From NCBI RefSeq assembly GCF_009914755.1, contig NC_060943.1: 64,000 bases of DNA. One strand, given 5' to 3'. Positions 17,591-57,106 of the stretch are shown here, in pieces. Both the position numbers and the translations under genes were made by a program. Within the stretch, counting starts at the first letter, position 1, and each line of letters opens with the position of its first letter. Below the pieces are notes generated by a model that did no database searches, had not been told where the DNA came from, and saw only the letters and a program-made list of their open reading frames with translations. This stretch comes from the human T2T-CHM13v2.0 reference genome, Homo sapiens.

Positions 17591-18531
17591 AATTTAAGAA
17601 CACAACCATGGTAGGTTGAGAAAAAGAAAAGGAATTGAATCACCCATTAAAAACACACAAAGAGAAACGAAACATTCTTTAGAAGCAAAACTACAATTTC
17701 GTCAGTCTGGCTGGCCAATTGCAGAAAAAAACAGCTTATGTGTGTCATTACATGACCAATGAAAAGGAGATAGCGTCTGGTCTAAAACTGAGAAAAAACA
17801 AACCTCATTTTCTGATCAGCGCCCTCACTGGTTGAGGACTCTTTAGGAGCCGGAGGGACTTCATTACAAGCGTCAAAATCAAACTTCCTCCCGTCTTCTT
17901 TGCTATCTCTGGCTTCTGGGCTTGGGGCTTCCGTGGGTGCTTCTGCGAGCTCCTCGCTAGAGGCCTCCGCGAGCTCGGAGGCCGCACTACTCTGCTCAAC
18001 TGCCGGCTCTAGCCCTACAGGCTCACAGTCCGTCCTCTCGCCATCGCCTGGCTGCTCCGCGGGCTCCCTTTTCACTACCGCTAACAGGCTGTCTGCCTTG
18101 CTCGACTGAGCGTGTGCTGTTGACTCGCTGGCCAAATCTAAATCACCCTCTTCCGGATGGGCGCTGTCAAATAGGTCCTCTTCCTCCGCAAGCTTTCTGT
18201 CTGGCCCCACGCTACTTGTGTCCTGTGCAAATGGCTGCTCCAGCTCGGAACTTTCTTCTTTTACTGGCTCAGATTTACAAGTTTCCCCCAAAATGTCGAG
18301 TATTTTCTCATTTTCTACGGATTTAACAGGAATAGAATGGCACAAGGTTTAATTACCAGGGAAATAAAGCAATCACAAATGTGGAACTGGCACGGCTGCC
18401 ACACTAACACGAAGAGAACTGCTAGCTACACAGAGATTGGAAAACCCGCGGGTACACAAAGTTATACTGGTTACACTACCTGCGCCGCGACCGCCTCTAG
18501 GTAAGCCTCTACGCTACACGGAAGAGAAAAG
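17591..18531 (-). repeat. 941-bp inverted repeat, copy A (SAFB2 intron 6/exon 7/intron 7)
   Basis: Reverse complement of 55456-56396; matched positions always sum to 73987 (no indels); no mismatch seen by eye; first mismatches at 17590/56397 and 18532/55455. Confidence 0.93.
17804..18314 (-). CDS. SAFB2: SAFB2 exon 7 (511 nt, acidic region; identical to SAFB exon 7)
   Basis: tag|AA AAT GAG ([17 protein letters not shown]...GADQKM S) AG|gtttgt; within ORF 17782-18345. Confidence 0.95.
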
Positions 18532-19223
18532 GCCCCCACAGATTTAAACACCTACAACCACGCGGCTGGTTCTCAATAGTCTTCTTCGAGTTTTTGTTCA
18601 AGTCTGGGTCTTCTGACTGATTTTCCAATGTCCAAGGTGCTGAACCGAATGCAATCACCATTCAATGACAGCTCAACTTCCAAATTTCTTTGAATTTCTT
18701 TTAACAGAACAATCCAATATGAAAATCAGAATCTCTTCTGACGGTGGGAGATAAACGCAGTCCGGAAGGGGAATAATATGTTGAAAATTTTCACGGAGAA
18801 ACTCTGTTTCCTCTTCTGGAATCCAGTCACTTCTCAGGTGGTAAGTGCCCTGACAACAGCTTTATCCTGCCTTAACTGCGTTAATCAAAATGACTGCAGC
18901 AAAATATCACAAGATCTGTTTCATGTGTAGAAACACATGGAGGAATCACGGGGACGGGGGAATTAAATGCCACTCTACGTGGTTAGACATGAAAAGAATC
19001 ACTACTACATTGCACCAAATGTATTTGACCTCAAGAAGCCAGAATGGCTCTTCCACAGATCTGGTGATACGAATGGGTTTCCAATCTCTGATCCTTGTAT
19101 GATCTGGATTGTCCACCATTAGAGCAATTTACAAGATCATAACACAGCTTAAAATATAGACAGCTTTAAAATAATAGTGTGAAAACTTTCAAACCATAAC
19201 TGTCGTGTTTCTCTTATCAGTAC

Positions 19224-30077: not shown

Positions 30078-30429
30078 GTGGATTTGGGGCCCCGAGGGCG
30101 GGCACAGGGTGGGTCTGGGGTCCTCTTGGCCGCGACGGTGGCTCGCGGGCCCTGGCGTCCGCCCCCGGCCGCGTTCGCGGCCTCGCCGGACCTGGCGCTC
30201 TCGCGTCCCCCGGCTCCTCCGAGGCCCCGGAGAGAGTTCCTTGGCCGGCTGGGCCTGGGTTCAAATCCTAACGCCGCAATGGGGCCAGGAGAACCACAAA
30301 AACGGCACGCGTGCAGGAGAAACGGTGACGGGTGACATCGTCCACTGAGAGGAGGGTTCTCCCCTCGTCTCGTCCCCTCCTCCGTACCTGGAGGGGAGAC
30401 CCTGAAACCCTCACTTCCCAGGCGAGGGG

Positions 30430-30500
30430 AAGGGACTCGGCCAAGGTCACACGGCCGAGGACGGGCAGCGTCGGGATTTGAACCCAGGCCCTGGGATTCC
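30430..30500 (+). mobile_element. MIR fragment inside the CpG island
   Basis: ccaaggtcacacggc...gggatttgaacccagg. Confidence 0.6.
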
Positions 30501-33087
30501 TGATTCGGCTGCTTGGTTTCCCCAGGGAAGATGCTTTGTGACCCACAGGGGACCGACCAGCCTGAATCGGGGCTGATTTACAAAGGAAACACCCGTAGGA
30601 CATACTCAAAGGGAAAAATAGAAAAAAACCCACCACAATCCAGTTTTCACGGTTTGCCGGTACTCGCTCGGTGAAGTAACGTGGCAGGAAGGAAAAGTGG
30701 TGTTGACGGTAGTGATCAGAAATGTGAAATGAGGGGAGACCCCGGGTGGACTTTAAAACCAGCCTCAGAACTGCCCGGGAGGCGGGCAGAGCCTGGGCTC
30801 CCCCAGCTCCGTCAGTCTCTCTGGACTTGGGGACCCTGCCAGCTCTCGGTGGCCTGATCTTGGGCATAGGAGACCTTGAACCCCTTCTGAGTCCTCTTTT
30901 CTATTCTTTTTTTTTTTTTTTCTCCTGTAAGAAGCAAAAAAGCAATAGGACTTTGATTTGGGGATTAAATAAGTTTGCGTGGAGCAGGCTTGGCGTGCTG
31001 CCTGGCGCATGTAAACACTCGGTGTGTGGTTGCCATCACGATTCGCTTTTCCTCTCTGTGCCACCACGAGTCCTCATTTGCAGATCGGGGGCTCTAACGC
31101 CTCCCTTGGGGGATTCAAAGGGATCCCTAGGAAAAGCAGAGAGGCAAGTAAAGGTTAGCCACCTGCGGTTTCCTTATTCCTGTAGCTTTTTTTCTCTGCC
31201 TTTTTTCCACCTGGCTACTCTGGGACCTCTCCCCTGTAGTTGCTCCGCCTGGCCGCCCACCCCCCAGCCCCTGCAGGCAGTGGGGCTGTTGACACATCCC
31301 ACCATCCTGACTCCGGAACTACGGAGATCACAGGGCTTTATTATTAATTGGTGATGAGAAGAAGTAGGGATTTTTTTTTTTTTTTTTTTCCTGATGAGAA
31401 ACCCTGGGCTCAAGGGTGGATAGTTGTCTCGGCCAGAGTCACATGGGCCTTTTAAAAGCTCAAGCTTGTGTTTCTTTTCACTATGGATTCTCTTTACTCA
31501 GATAAGGCAGGAAGCCCACTGATCTACATATTTACCCAGAGAAAATGCAGAGAGTGGAGATTGGCGGCTGGTCAGGTGTGGTGCCCCGCCACCAGGGCCT
31601 CCCATCAGCTAAGCCAAATTAAGAGGCTTTATCCTTTTTTTCTCCCTGGACGGTCCATAGGCCTGAAAAGCTGCTGTGATCTTCCTGTCAAGCTGGTGAC
31701 TGAGACTTCCCATCACTCGCTGTCATCTCTGAGAGCACAGATTTGTTCCTTCTTCCTTCTCCTTTTCATTTTCTTCAAGATGTGGTCCCAAAACACGAAT
31801 ACCGCCAGCCCATATCCCTGTCTGCCACTCACCCAAGCCAGTCTGGAGTTCCTGATCTCATTCTCTTCCCGTTTCTGTCATCCTGTTGGTGTCCCTTTCT
31901 TGGTTTATTTTTCCAGGAAGGGCAAAAGAACAAAAAGGGGGAACAGGACACCTGCCTAGGGCATTGCTTCTCTTCTCCTGGTGGTGTTTCAGAATTGCCT
32001 GTCCCCGGGAAAAGGGTGAGGGACTTGGTGATTGTACTTTTCCTTGATCCCAGGAAAGAACTTCAGTCCCTTTTCTGGCTTCTGAGAGGAGAGATTTTTG
32101 TTGCTGCTGGTAAAGATGAGATGTGGAACCCCCAGGCCCTATCTCAATTCAGACTTACCCACCTGGGAAACTTGGAGGCTTCCAAACCTCTGCAGATAAA
32201 ACATAGTACATGAAATGATGTAAACAAAACTTGTGCTCATGGGACTGGAGAGTAAAGACTGGAAAAGTTATCAGTAAAACTTGACCTGAAGCTAAGTTTC
32301 TAGGGACGTCATCGTGATTGACGTGTTCGGTACTGATGGCTTAGTTGATGCCAGGCACTGTGCTGAGGATGGGCATAGTTGAAGTGAGTGACAGAGTCCT
32401 GGGGTGGGAGGCTGGGCGTGCCAAGAAATTCTTATAATTCAATATCCGATGAGGCACAATCACCTAGTGGTTGCGAATGAGGTACTGGAGTCGGTTGTGA
32501 ATGTACATGATGGGGATCGGATGAGGTCATGCATGTCGTGACGGGTCTCGTGCGTAACACATAGTAGGATCCCAGTCAGCGAGCATTAGTATTCTGTCCA
32601 CACAGTACTGAGTACAGGCACGGCGTGGAGGGAGTCCCTGGAGGGTTAAAGAGTATTTTGTGAGTAAAGTCAGGGGAAATGGAGAGTGTGCCTTTCCCTT
32701 TTTGAGTTCTTCTGGGCTTAGGAAGGAGATGAACCAGATAAGCCTACTGTTTGTTGAGTGCTTCCTTTTCATGGCTAGTAGAGTCCTCACAACAGCCTTC
32801 CAGGGTAAGTACTGTATTATTATTAGCCGCATGTTCCAGAGGAAGAAGCAAAAACTGAGCACCTAAGTAAACCTGCCTGGGACCACCCAGCTAAGAACTG
32901 GTGGCGTCAGTCGGTCTCCAGTGTAGAGCGAGATAACAGATGAGTGGATGGGCCACAGGTCCTGGGTGGTGAGGGCGGCAGCAGCTTTTTGATCTTAAAA
33001 ATACAGTTTCCTTGTCACCTGAGAGCTCTCTGAAAGCAGTGTGTGAGCTGACTTTTTGGATCAACTTTACTTTTCCCTTCTTTTTAG

Positions 33088-50629: not shown

Positions 50630-52020
50630 TCACTTGCAAGAGGTTTTCGGAAGATTCAATGGATGGATGTTTATTATACACTTAAAGCAGAAGTCATCAA
50701 GTTGGCTGTCACCTGGGTTGTTTTTGTTTTGTTTTGTTTTTGTTTTGGGGTTTTTTTGTTTTTGCTTTGTTTTGCTTTTTTTCAAGACAGGGTCTCATGG
50801 TGTAAATGAAGTTTTCTGAGAACACAACCACACCTATTGATACTGTTGTCTATGGCTGCTTTTGTGCTTTAGTGTCAGAGAGGAGTCCTGACTCATCTGT
50901 TCTACAATTCCTGAAGAATTTACTAGGCAGCTCCAACAAAGTGTTTCCCAGCCTAGTTCAATGCCTAGCATCTAGAAAGCACCGTAGAGTTATGAAATGT
51001 ACCACCACGAATACAGTTTTTACTGCAGTGTAACCATCAAAATGAACTAAGCACATCTGTGTGAACTCAAACAATCTCCAAAAGAGAAGTGACACTTGGG
51101 GAGGGTTCAGAATGATGTGCTGCCCCTGGTGCAGATGTCTAAGGGGAGATGGTCTTTGGCACTTAAACACGTGTGTAGCATATGCGATGACCACTGCATG
51201 GCAGGAAGAAAGGAGTAGTGGAGAGTGGTTTTCAGTGAATGGGCTTTTGTACCTTTTGAGTCTTCTGATCGTGTGCGTGTCTTTCCTAGTGAAATATAGT
51301 GATAAAAATACATGCTGGTTATAAAATATCTGAAAACGTCTCCCCCTAAGTATATCTCAAATTTCAGGGCTTTAGAGCAGATGGCCAAAATTGGTTTCAG
51401 TCACAAATTATCTGAACCCCCTTTCTTTGTTTGGGGAATCCTTTGCCTTATTGGGCAGAGCCTACTTCTTAGAATAAAAGCTATTCTTCCCCTGCAAGTA
51501 GGGCATAGGATATTGCCAGTCTCGAGCTCCTGTCCTCACCCTCATGCTGGGAGATGCTGTTCCATTGAGGGAGGTACCTACCCCAGGGGCAGCAGGTCCC
51601 ACATCCTCAGCATCCAGGCTGGGCGAGCAGCGGTGGCTGAAGGCTCCACTTCAGCAGGACTCTAGCCATTGCTCCTGGAAGAACAGCCCTCACCCTGTGC
51701 TCAGATCCACTTAGAGGCTGTGCACTCATTTTCATCTCTTTTCTGTTTGACTTAGACTTTTTTTCTTTCTTTTGCATCTTAAAACCTACATAGCTACCAT
51801 ATTAGTAGATTTCCTAGTCTATGTGCAGGTGGACATTTACATACAACTTTTTTTTCAGTTTAGCTGCAATTATACTATAATAGTGTTTTGATTTCTGCCC
51901 TGGGTTTAAAATTTTGTTGTGAATTATTTTCATAGCTGTTCACTTTTCATTGTACAGATGTACCATTATGTTACGTTATTGTTGGTGTGATGAACTGTAT
52001 TTTCTCCATTTATTTTACAG

Positions 52021-52083
52021 ATAGAGGACAAAGAAACTATAAACAATTTAGATACTTCATCATCTGACTTCACTATATTACAG
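52021..52083 (+). CDS. SAFB: SAFB exon 5
   Basis: cag|IEDKETINNLDTSSSDFTILQ|gtaaac. Confidence 0.92.
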
Positions 52084-54699
52084 GTAAACTGTTGTATGTC
52101 TCAGTACTTTTAGAATGAAAGGTCAGACCACAATTTCTGGAATCCATTTCAGACACCATATGCCAGTTCCAGCTAATAATCACCACAAGGGTTGTTTCCT
52201 TTGTCAGGATCGTTAATGGGTGTTTGCTTTCTGCTTTCCTCCAAATATAATGTACGCATTGCCAGGGACTTAACTCTAGGCTTCGACGAGTGGCCTCCAA
52301 GCGCTGTGGCTTACCAGCAGTCATTAGAGTCATGTTTTGTGGCATTCTTAATTTCATTGCTTGTGGCAGGGGAAGGCAGCCTGTCTCATCTACCCTGGGT
52401 GGCATCCCCTGCAGAAAGATGATTTGATGAGACAGCAAGAGGGCATGGCTACCTGGGAAAGATGAGTAGGGCCCAGATGGGGATTGAGGGTTGACAGAGC
52501 CCTGTTGGGGAAGGTGGGGTCTCAGGGGTTCTGGTCTTGTCTTTGGGAAGTTTTTTTTGTTTTGTTTTGTTTTGTTTTTGTTTTGTTTTTTCTGAAATTG
52601 CCCAGATTTCATTTAATGACTGTATCATCCTACCTGTTTCATTGGCATCTCTGTAAATATTAAATCTTAGATGAGAACAGATGAGTTGAGAATTTCCAGG
52701 TATGATTTTTATATTTGTGGGTCTTGAGTTTCCTTTTTTTTTCCAGCCTACATAGATACAAATTGTTAGAACACACTTACCTAGGTAGCTGGCTAATTCT
52801 TAGGAGAACTTTTTGTGGAGAAATGAAGATCGAGCCAGCTTTTGCCCAGCCTTTTTATTTATTTATTTTTTTTCCCGTCTTCTTTTTAAATGTCATCTAT
52901 GTTATTGTAATTAGAAATCCCCTTTTGGAAAAGATCTCCATTTGCTTCTGCCATGCAAGGGCAAGGGAGATACTGGAAAGCCAGAGCTCCAACCTTGAGG
53001 AGGGCACAAATCTCAAGAAAACGTGGTGAAACCCAGTTCGCTTTTAGAGCTGCCGTCTCTCCACCTGCAAATTGACACGGCCATTCCCGACTCAGAAAGG
53101 AGAGGAGGAGCCGGATCTTGTCACTTTCCCCTGGCTCTTTCTTGGTCACAGTCTCCCATGTTAAAATGGGAAACCTACAGTCTCTCCTAAACAAATAGGA
53201 ATGTATTTGCTTCTCTTTAGAGAAAATGAGGAAGAATTATTCTGCCAACATTGATGATTTGCTTCAGTCCTATGGTCAGAATTCCCAGCATGGGGTAGGG
53301 TACATGGGGAAAAAACTGATTAAAAATAAGTGAAAGCATGAGGAAAGTGTACAGTTTCATAGAGCATCCTGGAATGGCAGGGCAGTTCCCAGGGGAAGTT
53401 ATAATTCAGTCACACCTACTTATTGGGTATATGTGAATCCCCTGTGATGTGTCAGGTGTGGCATTAACTACCAGCATTACATAGATGAATGAGAAGGAAG
53501 GGTGGTCCCCATGCTCGTGGGGCCTGGCCTGATGGTTAACAGTGCAGACTCACACTCATACACGGCCTTTGCTCAGAGCCTGTCTCTGCTTCCCACCTGC
53601 TGTGTGTCCTTGGGCAAGTTACTCAGTCTGTCTGGTCACAGTCTGTTACTCTGTAAAAAGAAGGGTGCTACCATTAGGACCAACCTCCTGCAACCGATGA
53701 CGAGTCTGTGTGTATGTAAGGTGCTTACATTTGTGCCTGGAACCTAGTCAGTGCCCATCAGTTGACTGGAATTCCAGAGGAGTGTACCTTGTGTGCACAG
53801 GAAACATAAAGGCTGGGGGATCACATCATGTGGAAAAAGCTCCTTTGCTTAGTGGGGCACAGCTGGAGTTGGGTTAGAGGGAAATAGGGAAAGCCTTCCT
53901 GAAAGGAGATGCCACTGAGCTGGATACTGAGGGATGTGGATGACTTGGCTGGACGGGGCAGGGGAGGGCTGGGCCTGTCAGGGAGGGAGGTGGCATAGGG
54001 ATCCATTGGCTGAAGGCTGAAGGCCACAGAGGGACATGAGCTTACTGTGGACACAAGGTGCAGAGAGATGGGATGGGGATAATACAACCAGATGCCACAG
54101 TAGGCAAGGATGGCACCAGCCTGAGTGGACAGGGCTTCCTGGGAAGAGTCTGAATGACTTCTAGAACTGGCCTGGTGGGAACACTGATTGGAAGAGGAGA
54201 TGAAGGAGGGAGGGTATTTACAAAGTTTTTCATGCTGGCACCACCATGCCAAGTAAGAGCAGGAGTCATACCACCTGGGCCCATATTCCCTCAGTCTTTC
54301 GAATATCAGAAAGTTGTCGTAGCTTCATTGAGTGAAAAAGTGACTGTTAATGTGCCATGCATTCCTCTAGATGCTAACAGTAGAAAAATGAAAACACTGC
54401 TCTCCTTGAATTTGAGAGTTCAATCTAGAGGGTCAGGCGTGCTTATGATGAGTGCCTCACCATGAAGTGAGACCAGTTCCAGGCTCCTGCAGGGGAGACT
54501 GAATGGAGGGTGGGCTGAGTGAAGTGGATGCCAGTCTTATGGAGCCATTCCTAGAACAAGCAGGTTCTCCACCTCTTGAGTTTGTGAGTTTCCCTCCCTG
54601 GATTTTTAAAATTCCCTCTTTAGTTATTCTGGGTTTTCATTTAAATAAACTGTAGGTGTCATTCATCTGGCACAGTCTTATTTACGTTTTTTCTTGCAG

Positions 54700-54727
54700 G
54701 AAATTGAAGAGCCATCCCTGGAGCCAG
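54700..54727 (+). CDS. SAFB: SAFB exon 6 (28-nt microexon)
   Basis: cag|EIEEPSLEP G|gtactg. Confidence 0.9.
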
Positions 54728-55455
54728 GTACTGTTAAATGAAAAACTTACCAGCGGGGGTTTGGAACCATTCTAGTTTTCCACCTTCTCTAATTTGAATT
54801 CTTTGATTTTTAAAAGTTACCTTACTATAGTATACATTGTTCTAAAGGTTTACAATCCAAAACCTACCAGGATCATAGAGATTGGAAACCCAGCCATATC
54901 ACCAGATCTGTGAAAGTGGCTCACTTCTCATTTTACAAAATGTATTGGTGAGATGAAAGTATCTCATGCCTTTTTGAATATCAACAGCATTGAATCATAC
55001 ATAGAGAAAGAGTTCCAGATGCCTCTCTTGAGAGCTAATACCTCTGCACCCACAAAACAGATCTTGTGATATTGGGCAGTAGCTTAATTTTGTTGTTTTT
55101 AATTGAGGCAGCTCAGGTAGTGGTAGGGAGATACATTTTAAAACATAAATTTGAGACATAACTGGATTCCAGAAGAGGAAAGAGTGTCTTCATGAGAATT
55201 CCAAACACTGTTCACTTTCTGGACTGCAAATATCTCAGAGCACGGATGGAAGAGATTCTGGTTTTCATGTTGGACTGTTCTGTTAAAAGAAATTCAAAGA
55301 AATTTGGAAATTGAGCTGTTCAGTGAATGGTGATACATTCAGTTAAGCAACTTGGACTTTGGAAGCTAAATTTGGAAGAGTCATATCTAAACGACGACAG
55401 AATGAAGACTGTCAAGAATCAGCCAGAAGGTTTTGGGGGTTAAATCTCTGGGATG

Positions 55456-56396
55456 CTTTTCTCTTCCGTGTAGCGTAGAGGCTTACCTAGAGGCGGTCGC
55501 GGCGCAGGTAGTGTAACCAGTATAACTTTGTGTACCCGCGGGTTTTCCAATCTCTGTGTAGCTAGCAGTTCTCTTCGTGTTAGTGTGGCAGCCGTGCCAG
55601 TTCCACATTTGTGATTGCTTTATTTCCCTGGTAATTAAACCTTGTGCCATTCTATTCCTGTTAAATCCGTAGAAAATGAGAAAATACTCGACATTTTGGG
55701 GGAAACTTGTAAATCTGAGCCAGTAAAAGAAGAAAGTTCCGAGCTGGAGCAGCCATTTGCACAGGACACAAGTAGCGTGGGGCCAGACAGAAAGCTTGCG
55801 GAGGAAGAGGACCTATTTGACAGCGCCCATCCGGAAGAGGGTGATTTAGATTTGGCCAGCGAGTCAACAGCACACGCTCAGTCGAGCAAGGCAGACAGCC
55901 TGTTAGCGGTAGTGAAAAGGGAGCCCGCGGAGCAGCCAGGCGATGGCGAGAGGACGGACTGTGAGCCTGTAGGGCTAGAGCCGGCAGTTGAGCAGAGTAG
56001 TGCGGCCTCCGAGCTCGCGGAGGCCTCTAGCGAGGAGCTCGCAGAAGCACCCACGGAAGCCCCAAGCCCAGAAGCCAGAGATAGCAAAGAAGACGGGAGG
56101 AAGTTTGATTTTGACGCTTGTAATGAAGTCCCTCCGGCTCCTAAAGAGTCCTCAACCAGTGAGGGCGCTGATCAGAAAATGAGGTTTGTTTTTTCTCAGT
56201 TTTAGACCAGACGCTATCTCCTTTTCATTGGTCATGTAATGACACACATAAGCTGTTTTTTTCTGCAATTGGCCAGCCAGACTGACGAAATTGTAGTTTT
56301 GCTTCTAAAGAATGTTTCGTTTCTCTTTGTGTGTTTTTAATGGGTGATTCAATTCCTTTTCTTTTTCTCAACCTACCATGGTTGTGTTCTTAAATT
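55456..56396 (+). repeat. 941-bp inverted repeat, copy B (SAFB intron 6/exon 7/intron 7)
   Basis: See copy A; four ORF-track entries recur identically on opposite strands. Confidence 0.93.
55673..56183 (+). CDS. SAFB: SAFB exon 7 (511 nt; identical to SAFB2 exon 7)
   Basis: tag|AA AAT GAG...ATG AG|gtttgt; ORF 55642-56205 has the same translation as ORF 17782-18345. Confidence 0.95.
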
Positions 56397-56609
56397 CTTC
56401 CTAATTACCTTTAGCCCAGCAGAATTAATTAACTCCTGTGGGTCTGAAATCTTATGGTTAGGTCAGATTTTCAATACAAGTTTGTCGGGGTATCATTTTT
56501 TCAGAACTAAATTTCGGGTAGGTATGCAACCTCAGCACGAATTTTATGGTTTTGAGTTTGTTTCCTCCATGCTGCTTCCTTGTGGAGTGACATTGTCTTT
56601 TGTCTCTAG

Positions 56610-56659
56610 TTCTCCCGAAGATGACTCGGATACAAAAAGGCTTTCCAAAGAGGAAAAGG
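56610..56659 (+). CDS. SAFB: SAFB exon 8
   Basis: tag|T TCT CCC.. SPEDDSDTKRLSKEEK G|gtaggt; 50 nt. Confidence 0.92.
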
Positions 56660-57106
56660 GTAGGTCACCTCGGCGACACCAGTCCCTTGGAGCATGTATG
56701 GCCTGGGCAGTGGCGGGTATTTGATTCTGGTTCATCGCGTGCTATGCTCCTTACCCAGGAGACTCCTGAGACGTTTGTGCAGTCTTTCTCCTTCTCTGCT
56801 GTTACCGCTACAGGTTCTGGGTTGTAGGAAGCATACCAGGTCCTAAGAGTTAACAGGCTGATTTGGTGCAGATCCTTGTGTTGGGAGCACATTCATCCTG
56901 TAACCCTTCATTAAATGCATTAACTGAGAAATAATTTTACCCTACCAAATTCCTTCTTAATCAGTGTTCTAAAGGAGTAAAAACATGGGATAGATACAGA
57001 GCTATACGTGGAAAGAGAAACAGTGCATTGTTGACACCAAGGTTGACTGTTCTGCTACATGGCCGTTGCACACTGCACTTCCTCCTGTAATTAAGCGATC
57101 GCTAAC

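What the first reader, a model, noticed from the sequence alone, without database searches (positions are those of the whole stretch)
54896..55072. Nested 16-bp stem with conserved arms and a diverged loop
Seen: SAFB AUAUCACCAGAUCUGU (54896-54911) pairs with ACAGAUCUUGUGAUAU (55057-55072), with a single C/U mismatch. SAFB2 has the same two arms (19055-19070 and 18904-18919), the same mismatch, and G-U in place of the terminal A-U. The loops (145 vs 135 nt) are barely alignable. The stem starts 4 nt inside the long-range stem, which suggests a multibranch junction. Conserved arms around a drifting loop are the expected signature of selection on RNA structure (inference).
Basis: seen in the sequence. 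Interest (0 to 1): 0.8.

Follow-up and report, generated by a model that had tools for sequence, protein, structure and literature searches.

The report
Conserved intronic RNA hairpin in SAFB/SAFB2
Two short complementary stretches in the intron after a tiny 28-base exon have stayed identical in the sister genes SAFB and SAFB2 while the sequence between them decayed, which most likely marks an RNA hairpin that helps control splicing of that intron, though this is not yet proven.

Summary
SAFB 54896-54911 and 55057-55072 are 15/16 Watson-Crick complementary with one C/U mismatch and a 145-nt loop. SAFB2 has the same arms, a G-U terminal pair and a 135-nt loop.

In one sequence the stem is only modestly unusual: 10/1000 shuffles match it, and it is not unusual at all if G-U pairs are allowed. 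The signal lies in conservation:
- The arms are 31/32 identical against 60/146 for the loop (p=1e-9).
- Two of six conserved islands being this complementary occurred in 1/5000 random draws.
- Both arms lie outside a 941-nt tract of 100% identity that is probably gene conversion.

The sequence is not a genomic repeat and matches no Rfam family. Both stems appear in the predicted folds.

There is no covariation: 14/15 pairs never vary and none is compensatory. Orthologues could not be reached. SLTM has its own 22/23-pair, sense-specific stem at the equivalent place, but homology was not detectable.

Best reading: a PCCR-like structural element in intron 6 that compacts the intron and probably affects exon 6-7 splicing. 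It is a new member of a known kind, of moderate interest.

The parts
54896..54911 (+). SAFB intron 6, 5' arm of the nested stem (ATATCACCAGATCTGT). It starts 169 nt downstream of the exon-6 5' splice site.
   Evidence: I5. Lies in a perfect-identity island, 54897-54912, shared with SAFB2. Paired in the MFE fold, pair probability 0.53-0.86.
54912..55056 (+). 145-nt loop of the nested stem, diverged between the paralogues.
   Evidence: 60 of 146 alignment columns identical to SAFB2. 20-nt windows score 6-12 of 20. Internal helices differ between SAFB and SAFB2.
55057..55072 (+). SAFB intron 6, 3' arm of the nested stem (ACAGATCTTGTGATAT).
   Evidence: I5. Lies in a 19-nt perfect-identity island, 55055-55073, flanked on both sides by unalignable sequence.
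54874..54894 (+). 5' arm of the enclosing long-range stem, 146 nt downstream of the 5' splice site.
   Evidence: I1: 21 nt, 86% complementary, 643 nt between the arms. Identity island 54877-54892. Pair probability about 1.0 for the core. Duplex -28.0 kcal/mol.
55538..55558 (+). 3' arm of the long-range stem, 114 nt upstream of the exon-7 3' splice site. It lies inside the 941-nt identical tract.
   Evidence: I1. Its identity with SAFB2 says nothing about constraint because it lies in the probable gene-conversion tract.
55073..55537 (+). 465-nt domain between the nested stem and the long-range 3' arm. It holds further conserved islands and all GAAGA/AAGAA motifs of the intron.
   Evidence: Identity islands 55161-55185, 55249-55260 and 55276-55309. 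7 GAAGA+AAGAA observed against 1.68 expected. Consensus hairpins.
19055..19070 (-). SAFB2 intron 6, 5' arm of the nested stem (GTATCACCAGATCTGT in RNA sense).
   Evidence: I3. Pair probability 0.87-1.0.
18904..18919 (-). SAFB2 intron 6, 3' arm of the nested stem (ACAGATCTTGTGATAT in RNA sense).
   Evidence: I3.
19075..19090 (-). SAFB2 5' arm of the long-range stem.
   Evidence: I1: 16 nt, 94% complementary, 628 nt between the arms.
18431..18446 (-). SAFB2 3' arm of the long-range stem.
   Evidence: I1.
54700..54727 (+). SAFB exon 6 (28 nt), whose 5' splice site (CAG|GTACTG) opens the structured intron.
   Evidence: RefSeq annotation supplied with the finding; sequence. Present in all 7 RefSeq/Gnomon SAFB transcripts listed.
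55673..56183 (+). SAFB exon 7 (511 nt), downstream partner of intron 6.
   Evidence: RefSeq annotation. 100% identical to SAFB2 exon 7.

Best explanation
The two arms base-pair in the SAFB and SAFB2 pre-mRNAs. They form a 15-bp helix of two segments (7 bp, a C/U mismatch, then 8 bp) that closes a variable loop of about 140 nt. This hairpin sits four bases inside a stronger long-range helix that loops out about 640 nt of intron 6.

Together the helices form a multibranch architecture. It shortens the path from the weak 5' splice site of the 28-nt exon 6 to the 3' splice site of exon 7 from 945 nt to about 260 nt. It also displays a GAAGA-rich central domain.

Shown here: the complementarity, its conservation between paralogues against a decayed loop, and its thermodynamic plausibility. 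Inferred: that pairing rather than sequence is what selection maintains. Also inferred: that the function is to promote or tune splicing of intron 6, possibly as part of the mutual regulation of SAFB proteins.
For: - Arms verified in both genes.
- Arms 31/32 identical against loop 60/146, Fisher p=1e-9.
- The islands 54897-54912 and 55055-55073 are flanked by unalignable sequence and lie outside the 941-nt identical tract.
- Complementarity between conserved islands was reached in 1/5000 random draws.
- The single substitution in the stem, A to G in SAFB2, keeps a pair as G-U.
- The stem is in the MFE fold of both whole introns, 15/16 positions, pair probability 0.86 and about 1.0. It coexists with the long-range stem and is in the RNAalifold consensus.
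- Hairpin z-scores are -3.89 and -4.16, with 0 of 200 shuffles folding as well.
- Duplex energies of -18.3 and -18.6 kcal/mol pass the -15 kcal/mol lower bound of the PCCR energy groups (passages of PMC8052449).
- It is not a repeat. No masked repeat lies in 52000-57100. The 281-nt region occurs only in SAFB and SAFB2. The arm 15-mer has 316 matches at one mismatch or fewer, against 167 for the reversed control.
- The third paralogue, SLTM, has an independent 22/23-pair stem with a 90-nt loop about 205 nt after the 5' splice site of its inferred 28-nt exon. It is much better in sense than antisense (-29.7 against -18.6 kcal/mol) and rare in shuffles (4/300).
- Context: SAFB1 and SAFB2 knock-downs up-regulate each other, a 'ternary feedback loop' with no stated mechanism (passages of PMC10901741). 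SAFB1 binds GAAGA (passages of PMC4689037). GAAGA/AAGAA is enriched in this intron in all three genes.
Against: - No covariation: 14/15 pairs are invariant and 0 are compensatory. Sequence-specific constraint therefore explains the arms equally well.
- With G-U allowed, stems of this size are expected by chance in an intron of this length (181/300 and 261/300 shuffles).
- At -18 kcal/mol the stem falls in the weakest PCCR energy group. The catalogue's false-discovery rate runs from 10% to over 50% and is worst under relaxed conditions (passages of PMC8052449).
- The SAFB duplex is equally stable on the antisense strand, so the RNA strand is not identified.
- RNAfold is bound to pair any near-perfect inverted repeat, so searches are not independent evidence.
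- The SLTM stem could not be shown to be homologous. MAFFT does not align it and the covariance model does not find it. Its exon boundaries are inferred from sequence, not from annotation.
- All 7 RefSeq/Gnomon SAFB transcripts splice exons 6 and 7 in the same way, so no regulated event is annotated here.
- No probing or cross-linking data were seen.
Confidence: 0.5

Rival explanations
1. The arms are two copies, in opposite orientation, of one sequence-specific binding site. This could be a DNA-binding protein site in an intronic regulatory region, or an RNA-binding protein motif built around the palindromic CAGATCT core. Under this reading selection acts on the sequence, and the complementarity follows from the inverted orientation rather than from pairing.
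For: - All four arms are essentially invariant with no compensatory change.
- The core of arm 1 is self-complementary: arm 1 with itself gives -12.2 kcal/mol.
- In SAFB the inverted repeat is symmetric between the strands.
- RefSeq annotates an enhancer element nearby, at 55158-56357.
Against: - The annotated enhancer does not cover either arm.
- Fifteen to nineteen conserved bases is long for a single factor's site.
- A second, independent conserved complementary pair lies 4 nt away and is nested rather than crossing.
- The only substitution keeps a wobble pair on the sense strand.
- SLTM has a stem at the equivalent place with a different sequence and three G-U pairs that work only in the sense RNA.
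- I identified no known motif; this rests on my own reading, and no motif library was searched.
Confidence: 0.2
2. The stem has no function. The identical islands would be leftovers of patchy gene conversion between the two head-to-head paralogues, and the complementarity would be a chance inverted repeat inherited from the ancestral gene.
For: - A 941-nt tract of 100% identity with sharp edges lies 384 nt downstream. Intermediate identity of about 80% lies between 55150 and 55455. Sequence exchange is therefore active at this locus.
- In a single sequence the stem is only a 1-in-100 event, and it is unremarkable with G-U allowed.
Against: - Conversion tracts are contiguous. Here islands of 16 and 19 nt are separated by 142 nt at about 41% identity with indels, and the 3' island is followed by about 80 nt of unalignable sequence.
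- That precisely two mutually complementary segments were retained has a probability of about 2e-4 under random placement.
- The same pattern holds for the 5' arm of the neighbouring stem.
Confidence: 0.1
3. The 177-nt unit is the relic of a small DNA transposon (MITE-like) whose terminal inverted repeats survive.
For: Its form resembles one: short terminal inverted repeats around about 145 nt of unrelated sequence.
Against: - No masked repeat of 100 bases or more overlaps it.
- A genome search with 54830-55110 finds only SAFB and SAFB2.
- The arm 15-mer is at about chance frequency in the genome: 316 matches at one mismatch or fewer, against 167 for the reversed control.
- No target-site duplication flanks it: AGCC upstream and TGGG downstream.
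- Neutral relic termini would have decayed along with the loop.
Confidence: 0.03

Closest known systems
[quoted passage not shown]
   Same: Two conserved intronic segments that are nearly perfectly complementary, lie within one intron, and have a duplex energy below -15 kcal/mol. [quoted passage not shown] That is the same limitation met here.
   Different: Conservation here was shown only between human paralogues, not across the 100-vertebrate alignment that defines PCCRs. SAFB is not in the paper's main text (0 papers hold both terms).
BRD2/BRD3 intronic RNA structures controlling unproductive splicing (Petrova et al. 2024, PMC10789245; abstract and outline seen)
   Same: Paralogous genes each carry conserved complementary intronic regions that control splicing. 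These were validated with minigene mutagenesis and antisense oligonucleotides, which is the experimental design needed here.
   Different: In BRD2 and BRD3 the structures evolved independently and flank poison exons. In SAFB and SAFB2 the arms are the same sequence, inherited from the duplication, and no poison exon is annotated or evident. SLTM, with a different stem at the same place, would be the closer analogue of independent acquisition.
Long-range pairing that promotes splicing of an intron, for example the SF1 exon 9-10 intron PCCR mentioned in PMC8052449 (passage)
   Same: A helix inside one intron brings the splice sites closer. Here the effective distance falls from 945 nt to about 260 nt.
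   Different: The effect on SAFB splicing is inferred, not measured. The nested 16-bp stem is the inner and weaker of the two helices.
Autoregulatory conserved intronic elements of RNA-binding-protein genes, for example the ARGLU1 ultraconserved element (PMC5389617; search listing only)
   Same: A gene for an RNA-binding protein with an unusually conserved intron, motifs for its own protein, and documented feedback among the paralogues (PMC10901741).
   Different: No retained-intron or NMD isoform of SAFB involving intron 6 was seen in the annotation or in the literature searched. Much of the extreme identity nearby is probably gene conversion rather than ultraconservation.

Membership tests
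PCCR (pair of conserved complementary regions) | Nearly perfect complementarity with duplex free energy of -15 kcal/mol or lower | tested here: met
   -18.3 kcal/mol in SAFB and -18.6 in SAFB2. This places it in energy group I, -20 to -15 (passage of PMC8052449).
PCCR (pair of conserved complementary regions) | Both arms lie in intronic regions conserved across vertebrates | not testable with these tools
   No vertebrate genomes or alignments are on hand. Only paralogue conservation could be shown: 31/32 arm positions, islands 54897-54912 and 55055-55073.
PCCR (pair of conserved complementary regions) | Both arms in the same gene and within the distance limit | tested here: met
   Both arms are in intron 6, 145 nt apart. 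The catalogue's numerical distance limit is recalled from memory, not seen in a call.
Structured RNA supported by covariation (R-scape type evidence) | Compensatory substitutions that keep the pairs | tested here: not met
   On the SAFB/SAFB2 alignment, 14 of 15 pairs never vary, 1 varies on one side and 0 on both sides. With only two sequences the test has almost no power.
Any Rfam family (snoRNA, miRNA precursor, cis-regulatory element) | Covariance-model match at the gathering score | tested here: not met
   cmscan of 54600-56700 gave 7 matches at E<=10, all far below gathering (9.9-20.5 bits against 40-95). None overlaps 54896-55072.
pri-miRNA / mirtron | A long stem (roughly three helical turns) with a small terminal loop | tested here: not met
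   The stem is 15 bp and closes a loop of 135-145 nt. No miRNA model matches at the arms. The stem-length criterion is from general knowledge.
MITE / DNA-transposon relic | Multiple dispersed genomic copies, with target-site duplication flanking the terminal inverted repeats | tested here: not met
   Only 2 places in the genome, SAFB and SAFB2. The arm motif is at about chance frequency. The flanks AGCC and TGGG are not duplicated. No masked repeat overlaps it.
Same stem family in SLTM (homologous structure across all three SAFB paralogues) | SLTM stem detectable with a model of the SAFB/SAFB2 hairpin, or alignable to it | tested here: not met
   Model R1 searched over 55 kb of SLTM with filters off gave 42 hits at E<=10, best E=0.45. 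The SLTM stem (L005 1982-2117) is not among them. MAFFT does not align the arms. Positional analogy only.

The most novel reading that the evidence does not exclude
Because all four arms are the same in both genes, arm 1 of one pre-mRNA can pair with arm 2 of the other exactly as well as in cis (-18.3 and -18.6 kcal/mol). SAFB and SAFB2 are transcribed divergently from a shared promoter region about 300 bp wide, so their nascent transcripts arise side by side.

The boldest reading not excluded is that the stems, together with the identical long-range arms, act as an inter-paralogue pairing code. It would couple the splicing of the two nascent transcripts and would present a shared GAAGA-rich domain that binds SAFB proteins. 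This would make it the cis-sensor of the reported SAFB1/SAFB2/SLTM feedback loop. It would also explain why the arms are frozen rather than covarying, since a change in one arm would need three matching changes.

A tamer version has the structured intron acting as the feedback sensor in cis only. I rate that version at about 0.15-0.2.
Probability: 0.04. Interest if true: 0.85.

Novelty: new member of a known kind. Interest (0 to 1): 0.45.

Why it matters
SAFB1, SAFB2 and SLTM are abundant nuclear RNA-binding proteins. They keep L1 and other purine-rich sequences from being spliced into mRNAs. Their levels are mutually buffered: depleting one raises another, a 'ternary feedback loop' whose mechanism is not given (passages of PMC10901741).

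Intron 6 is the only SAFB/SAFB2 intron besides intron 7 that keeps similarity outside repeats. It combines two nested conserved helices with a domain enriched in the SAFB-binding pentamers. If the helices are real, they mark a concrete and compact candidate for the cis-element of that feedback. They also give specific targets for antisense oligonucleotides or compensatory mutagenesis.

If they are not real, the case is a useful caution. Invariant inverted repeats next to a gene-conversion tract can look like structural selection.

Tried and rejected
- **Transposon origin.** Rejected: no masked repeat, only two genomic places, arm motif at chance frequency, no target-site duplication.
- **Known RNA family.** Rejected: there was no Rfam match near the gathering score.
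- **Gene conversion as the whole explanation.** Rejected for the arms, which lie outside the 941-nt identical tract and are separated by decayed sequence. It is kept as the likely explanation for the tract itself, and therefore for the identity of the long-range 3' arm.
- **Best-stem statistic with G-U allowed.** It gave no significance for SAFB or SAFB2. I report it as a negative and replaced it with a Watson-Crick-only statistic and an island test.
- **RNA.duplexfold of long flanks, to find an outer stem in SLTM.** It gave only long spurious duplexes with large internal loops, for SLTM and for the SAFB control alike. Abandoned.
- **Homology of the SLTM stem.** By eye the arms share short words with the SAFB arms and a pyrimidine mismatch after the outer helix. 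MAFFT, the covariance model and an nhmmer profile did not support alignment of the stems. nhmmer gave only two weak hits elsewhere in the intron, E=0.089 and E=0.26. I therefore claim positional analogy only.
- **Cryptic poison exon in the loop or the intron.** No conserved pairing of 3' and 5' splice sites was evident by reading. Not pursued with a splice-site scorer, because none was available.
- **Literature.** No paper holds SAFB with 'long-range RNA structure' (0) or with 'conserved complementary regions' (0). Searches of SAFB with 'gene conversion' (10 papers, 9 listed), 'detained intron' (4) and 'poison exon' (5 papers, 4 listed) gave listings whose titles and abstracts do not concern this intron. 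The library covers open-access papers only, and supplements were closed. The PCCR catalogue and the CLIP/FLASH tables that could bear on this were not seen.
- **Protein searches.** Not used.
Full report
**1. The observation**

- In SAFB (plus strand), 54896-54911 reads ATATCACCAGATCTGT and 55057-55072 reads ACAGATCTTGTGATAT. These are 15 of 16 Watson-Crick complementary, with a C opposite a U at the eighth position and 145 nt between the arms.
- In SAFB2 (minus strand) the RNA-sense arms are GTATCACCAGATCTGT (19070-19055) and ACAGATCTTGTGATAT (18919-18904). They have the same mismatch, a G-U terminal pair in place of A-U, and a 135-nt loop.
- The neighbouring long-range pair is also there: 54874-54894 with 55538-55558 in SAFB, and 19075-19090 with 18431-18446 in SAFB2.
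- In the consensus fold, four unpaired bases separate its last 5' pair from the first pair of the nested stem.

**2. Is it more than chance?**

Taken as one sequence, only modestly.
- A 15/16 Watson-Crick stem somewhere in the 945-nt intron arises in 10 of 1000 dinucleotide-preserving shuffles.
- If G-U pairs are counted, a stem with this many pairs is the expected maximum: 181 of 300 shuffles for SAFB and 261 of 300 for SAFB2 do as well.
- In the 64-kb window, 26 clusters of 15/16 inverted repeats with 20-300 nt loops were found. Of these, 24 lie in masked repeats or A/T runs and 2 lie in unique sequence, this stem being one of them.

The signal comes from the comparison of the paralogues.
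- A global alignment of the two introns shows perfect-identity runs of 12 nt or more at 54719-54733 (the 5' splice site), 54877-54892, 54897-54912, 55055-55073, 55161-55185, 55249-55260 and 55276-55309. It then shows one run of 941 nt, 55456-56396.
- The arms are 31/32 identical. The loop between them is 60/146 identical, about what unrelated sequence gives in a gapped alignment (Fisher p=1e-9).
- Segments of the same six lengths were drawn at random from unique parts of the window 5000 times. The best complementarity between any two reached the observed 14/16 once.

**3. Gene conversion**

Elsewhere, SAFB and SAFB2 exons are 67-78% identical and their introns share only Alu-type repeats. The exception is 55152-56613, which is 89% identical over 1482 nt. 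Its core is 941 nt without a single difference: 217 nt of intron 6, all 511 nt of exon 7 and 213 nt of intron 7.

The edges of this core are sharp, which I read as recent gene conversion between the two head-to-head genes. This has two consequences.
- The identity of the long-range 3' arm (55538-55558) says nothing about constraint.
- One must ask whether conversion also explains the nested arms.

It does not do so readily. Both arms lie 384 nt or more upstream of the tract. They are separated by 142 nt of decayed sequence with indels, and the 19-nt 3' island is again followed by about 80 nt that do not align. Patchy repair of a heteroduplex remains a minor rival.

**4. What it is not**

- It is not an interspersed repeat. 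No masked repeat of 100 bases or more lies between 52000 and 57100.
- A genome search with 54830-55110 returns only SAFB and SAFB2.
- The arm 15-mer has 316 genomic matches at one mismatch or fewer, against 167 for the reversed control. By my own estimate that is about the number expected by chance.
- No target-site duplication flanks the unit.
- It matches no Rfam family. There were 7 matches at E<=10 in 54600-56700, all far below gathering and none over the hairpin.
- Its form (15 bp closing about 140 nt) is not that of a miRNA precursor or a snoRNA.

**5. Folding**

- In RNAfold of each whole intron, the nested stem is in the minimum-free-energy structure at 15 of 16 positions. Pair probabilities are about 0.86 in SAFB and about 1.0 in SAFB2. 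The long-range stem forms at the same time.
- RNAalifold on the pair keeps both stems. It predicts 141 pairs in all, 13 of them with changes on both sides. None of those 13 is in the nested stem.
- The isolated hairpins fold with z-scores of -3.89 and -4.16.
- Duplex energies are -18.3 and -18.6 kcal/mol for the nested stem. For the long-range stem they are -29.8 and -25.8, or -28.0 and -21.8 with slightly different cut-outs.

These numbers show plausibility only. A folding program will always pair a near-perfect inverted repeat.

**6. Covariation**

There is none. On the two-sequence alignment, 14 of 15 pairs never vary, one varies on one side (A-U to G-U) and none varies on both. In SAFB the duplex is equally stable on the antisense strand. 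In SAFB2 the sense strand is better by 0.8 kcal/mol.

So the paralogue comparison shows conserved complementarity. It does not show selection for pairing as distinct from selection for the two sequences. Orthologous introns would decide this, but the collections on hand hold no vertebrate genomes other than this reference.

**7. SLTM**

- I fetched the gene.
- I located the homologous 28-nt exon and the following large exon by reading frame, splice-site dinucleotides and two BLAST anchors. These boundaries are inferred.
- I searched 55 kb with a model of the SAFB/SAFB2 hairpin, with filters off. There were 42 hits at E<=10, the best at E=0.45, and none was convincing.

The homologous SLTM intron nevertheless contains its own stem.
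- It is a 23-nt inverted repeat with a 90-nt loop (I1).
- In RNA sense it makes 22 of 23 pairs, 3 of them G-U, with one C/C mismatch. It starts about 205 nt after the 5' splice site, against 169 nt in SAFB and 154 nt in SAFB2.
- It is in the MFE fold with probabilities near 1.0 and has a z-score of -4.67.
- A stem this good arises in 4 of 300 shuffles even with G-U allowed.
- It is single-copy in the genome.
- It is much better in sense than antisense, -29.7 against -18.6 kcal/mol.

Neither MAFFT nor the covariance model relates it to the SAFB stem. I therefore call it a positional analogue. It could be either very old and diverged, or independently acquired as in BRD2 and BRD3 (abstract of PMC10789245).

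**8. Mechanism**

Some parts are shown and some are inferred.

Shown:
- Two nested, non-crossing, conserved complementary pairs lie in the intron that follows a 28-nt exon.
- If both form, the path from the 5' splice site (54728) to the 3' splice site (55672) falls from 945 nt to about 146 + 114 = 260 nt.

Read from the sequence: the exon-6 donor, CAG|GTACTG, departs from the consensus at the +4 to +6 positions. The consensus is from general knowledge.

Inferred:
- The architecture helps to pair the splice sites across intron 6.
- The nested hairpin forms first during transcription and stacks on the long-range helix or stabilises the junction.

Context:
- SAFB1 binds GAAGA and AAGAA (passages of PMC4689037).
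- These pentamers occur 7 times in SAFB intron 6 against 2.4 expected. All 7 lie in the 465 nt between the nested stem and the long-range 3' arm.
- They occur 9 times against 1.7 expected in SAFB2 and 8 against 3.7 in SLTM. In the control intron 5 they occur 7 times against 5.6 (uncorrected Poisson p from 0.03 to 8e-5).
- Depleting SAFB1 raises SAFB2 and the reverse. In cells without SAFB2, depleting SAFB1 raises SLTM. No mechanism is given (passages of PMC10901741).

It is therefore reasonable, though untested, that this structured intron is where SAFB proteins act on their own and each other's pre-mRNAs.

Against a regulated event: all 7 RefSeq/Gnomon SAFB models splice exons 6 and 7 identically, and I found no paper describing a SAFB isoform that involves this intron.

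**9. Comparison with known kinds**

The closest kind is the PCCR of Kalmykova et al. (PMC8052449; passages).
- Features met: the energy threshold and the intronic placement.
- Not testable here: vertebrate conservation.
- Not met between the paralogues: covariation.
- At -18 kcal/mol the nested stem falls in the weakest energy group. The catalogue's false-discovery rate ranges from 10% to over 50%.
- Whether this pair is already listed could not be checked, because supplements are closed. SAFB is not in any main text that mentions conserved complementary regions.

**10. Verdict**

- The structural interpretation is partly supported.
- The element is best filed as a new, unvalidated member of the class of conserved intronic complementary pairs.
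- Interest is moderate. It rises somewhat because of the nested architecture shared by two paralogues, the analogous stem in the third, and the link to an unexplained feedback loop.
- My confidence that the arms pair in the pre-mRNA, that this pairing is what selection maintains, and that it acts on splicing of intron 6 is about 0.5 overall. The specific splicing role is the weakest of these links.

Noticed in passing
window 55456-56396 (SAFB) = 17591-18531 (SAFB2, minus strand): A run of 941 nt is 100% identical between the paralogues: 217 nt of intron 6, all of exon 7 (511 nt) and 213 nt of intron 7. Its edges are sharp, whereas the other exons are 67-78% identical. It is probably recent gene conversion. 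Ultraconservation cannot be excluded without orthologues. A RefSeq enhancer element (55158-56357) overlaps it.
   Followed up: partly
L005 1982-2004 and 2095-2117 (chr15:56702982-56703004 / 56703095-56703117, SLTM, minus strand): SLTM has its own 22/23-pair stem (3 G-U pairs, one C/C mismatch, 90-nt loop) about 205 nt into the intron after its inferred 28-nt exon. It is sense-specific (-29.7 against -18.6 kcal/mol), single-copy, and matched by 4 of 300 shuffles. It is not alignable to the SAFB stem.
   Followed up: yes
window 55073-55537; SAFB2 intron 18315-19223; SLTM intron (L005 1000-2321): The SAFB1-binding pentamers GAAGA and AAGAA are enriched in the homologous intron of all three paralogues: 7 against 2.4 expected, 9 against 1.7, and 8 against 3.7. 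In SAFB all 7 lie in the domain looped out by the long-range stem. This may tie in with the reported feedback among SAFB proteins (PMC10901741).
   Followed up: partly
window 55653-55668 and 55386-55401; SLTM intron positions 1292-1316 and 737-762: Two short blocks of the intron are shared even with SLTM. One is a 16-nt block just upstream of the exon-7 acceptor (TATTCCTGTTAAATCC). The other contains GAAGA (GACAG.ATGAAGACTG). The nhmmer E-values are only 0.089 and 0.26, but the blocks are colinear.
   Followed up: partly
window 54945-54953 (SAFB loop); SAFB2 loop; SLTM loop (gene-oriented 32965-32975): Each hairpin loop contains a donor-like G|GT motif: TTG|GTGAGA in SAFB, TTG|GTGCAA in SAFB2, and ACG|GTAAGT in SLTM, which is close to consensus. 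The stems might hide or present a decoy 5' splice site. This was read by eye and not scored.
   Followed up: no
window 55257-55308: An imperfect hairpin covering the 34-nt identity island 55276-55309 is almost invariant between the paralogues. One G-U to A-U change occurs in the RNAalifold consensus (columns 397-448). It is another candidate structural element of the same intron.
   Followed up: no
window 30249-30264 and 30478-30493: This is the only other 15/16 Watson-Crick inverted repeat in unique sequence in the window (213-nt loop). It lies just downstream of SAFB exon 1.
   Followed up: no
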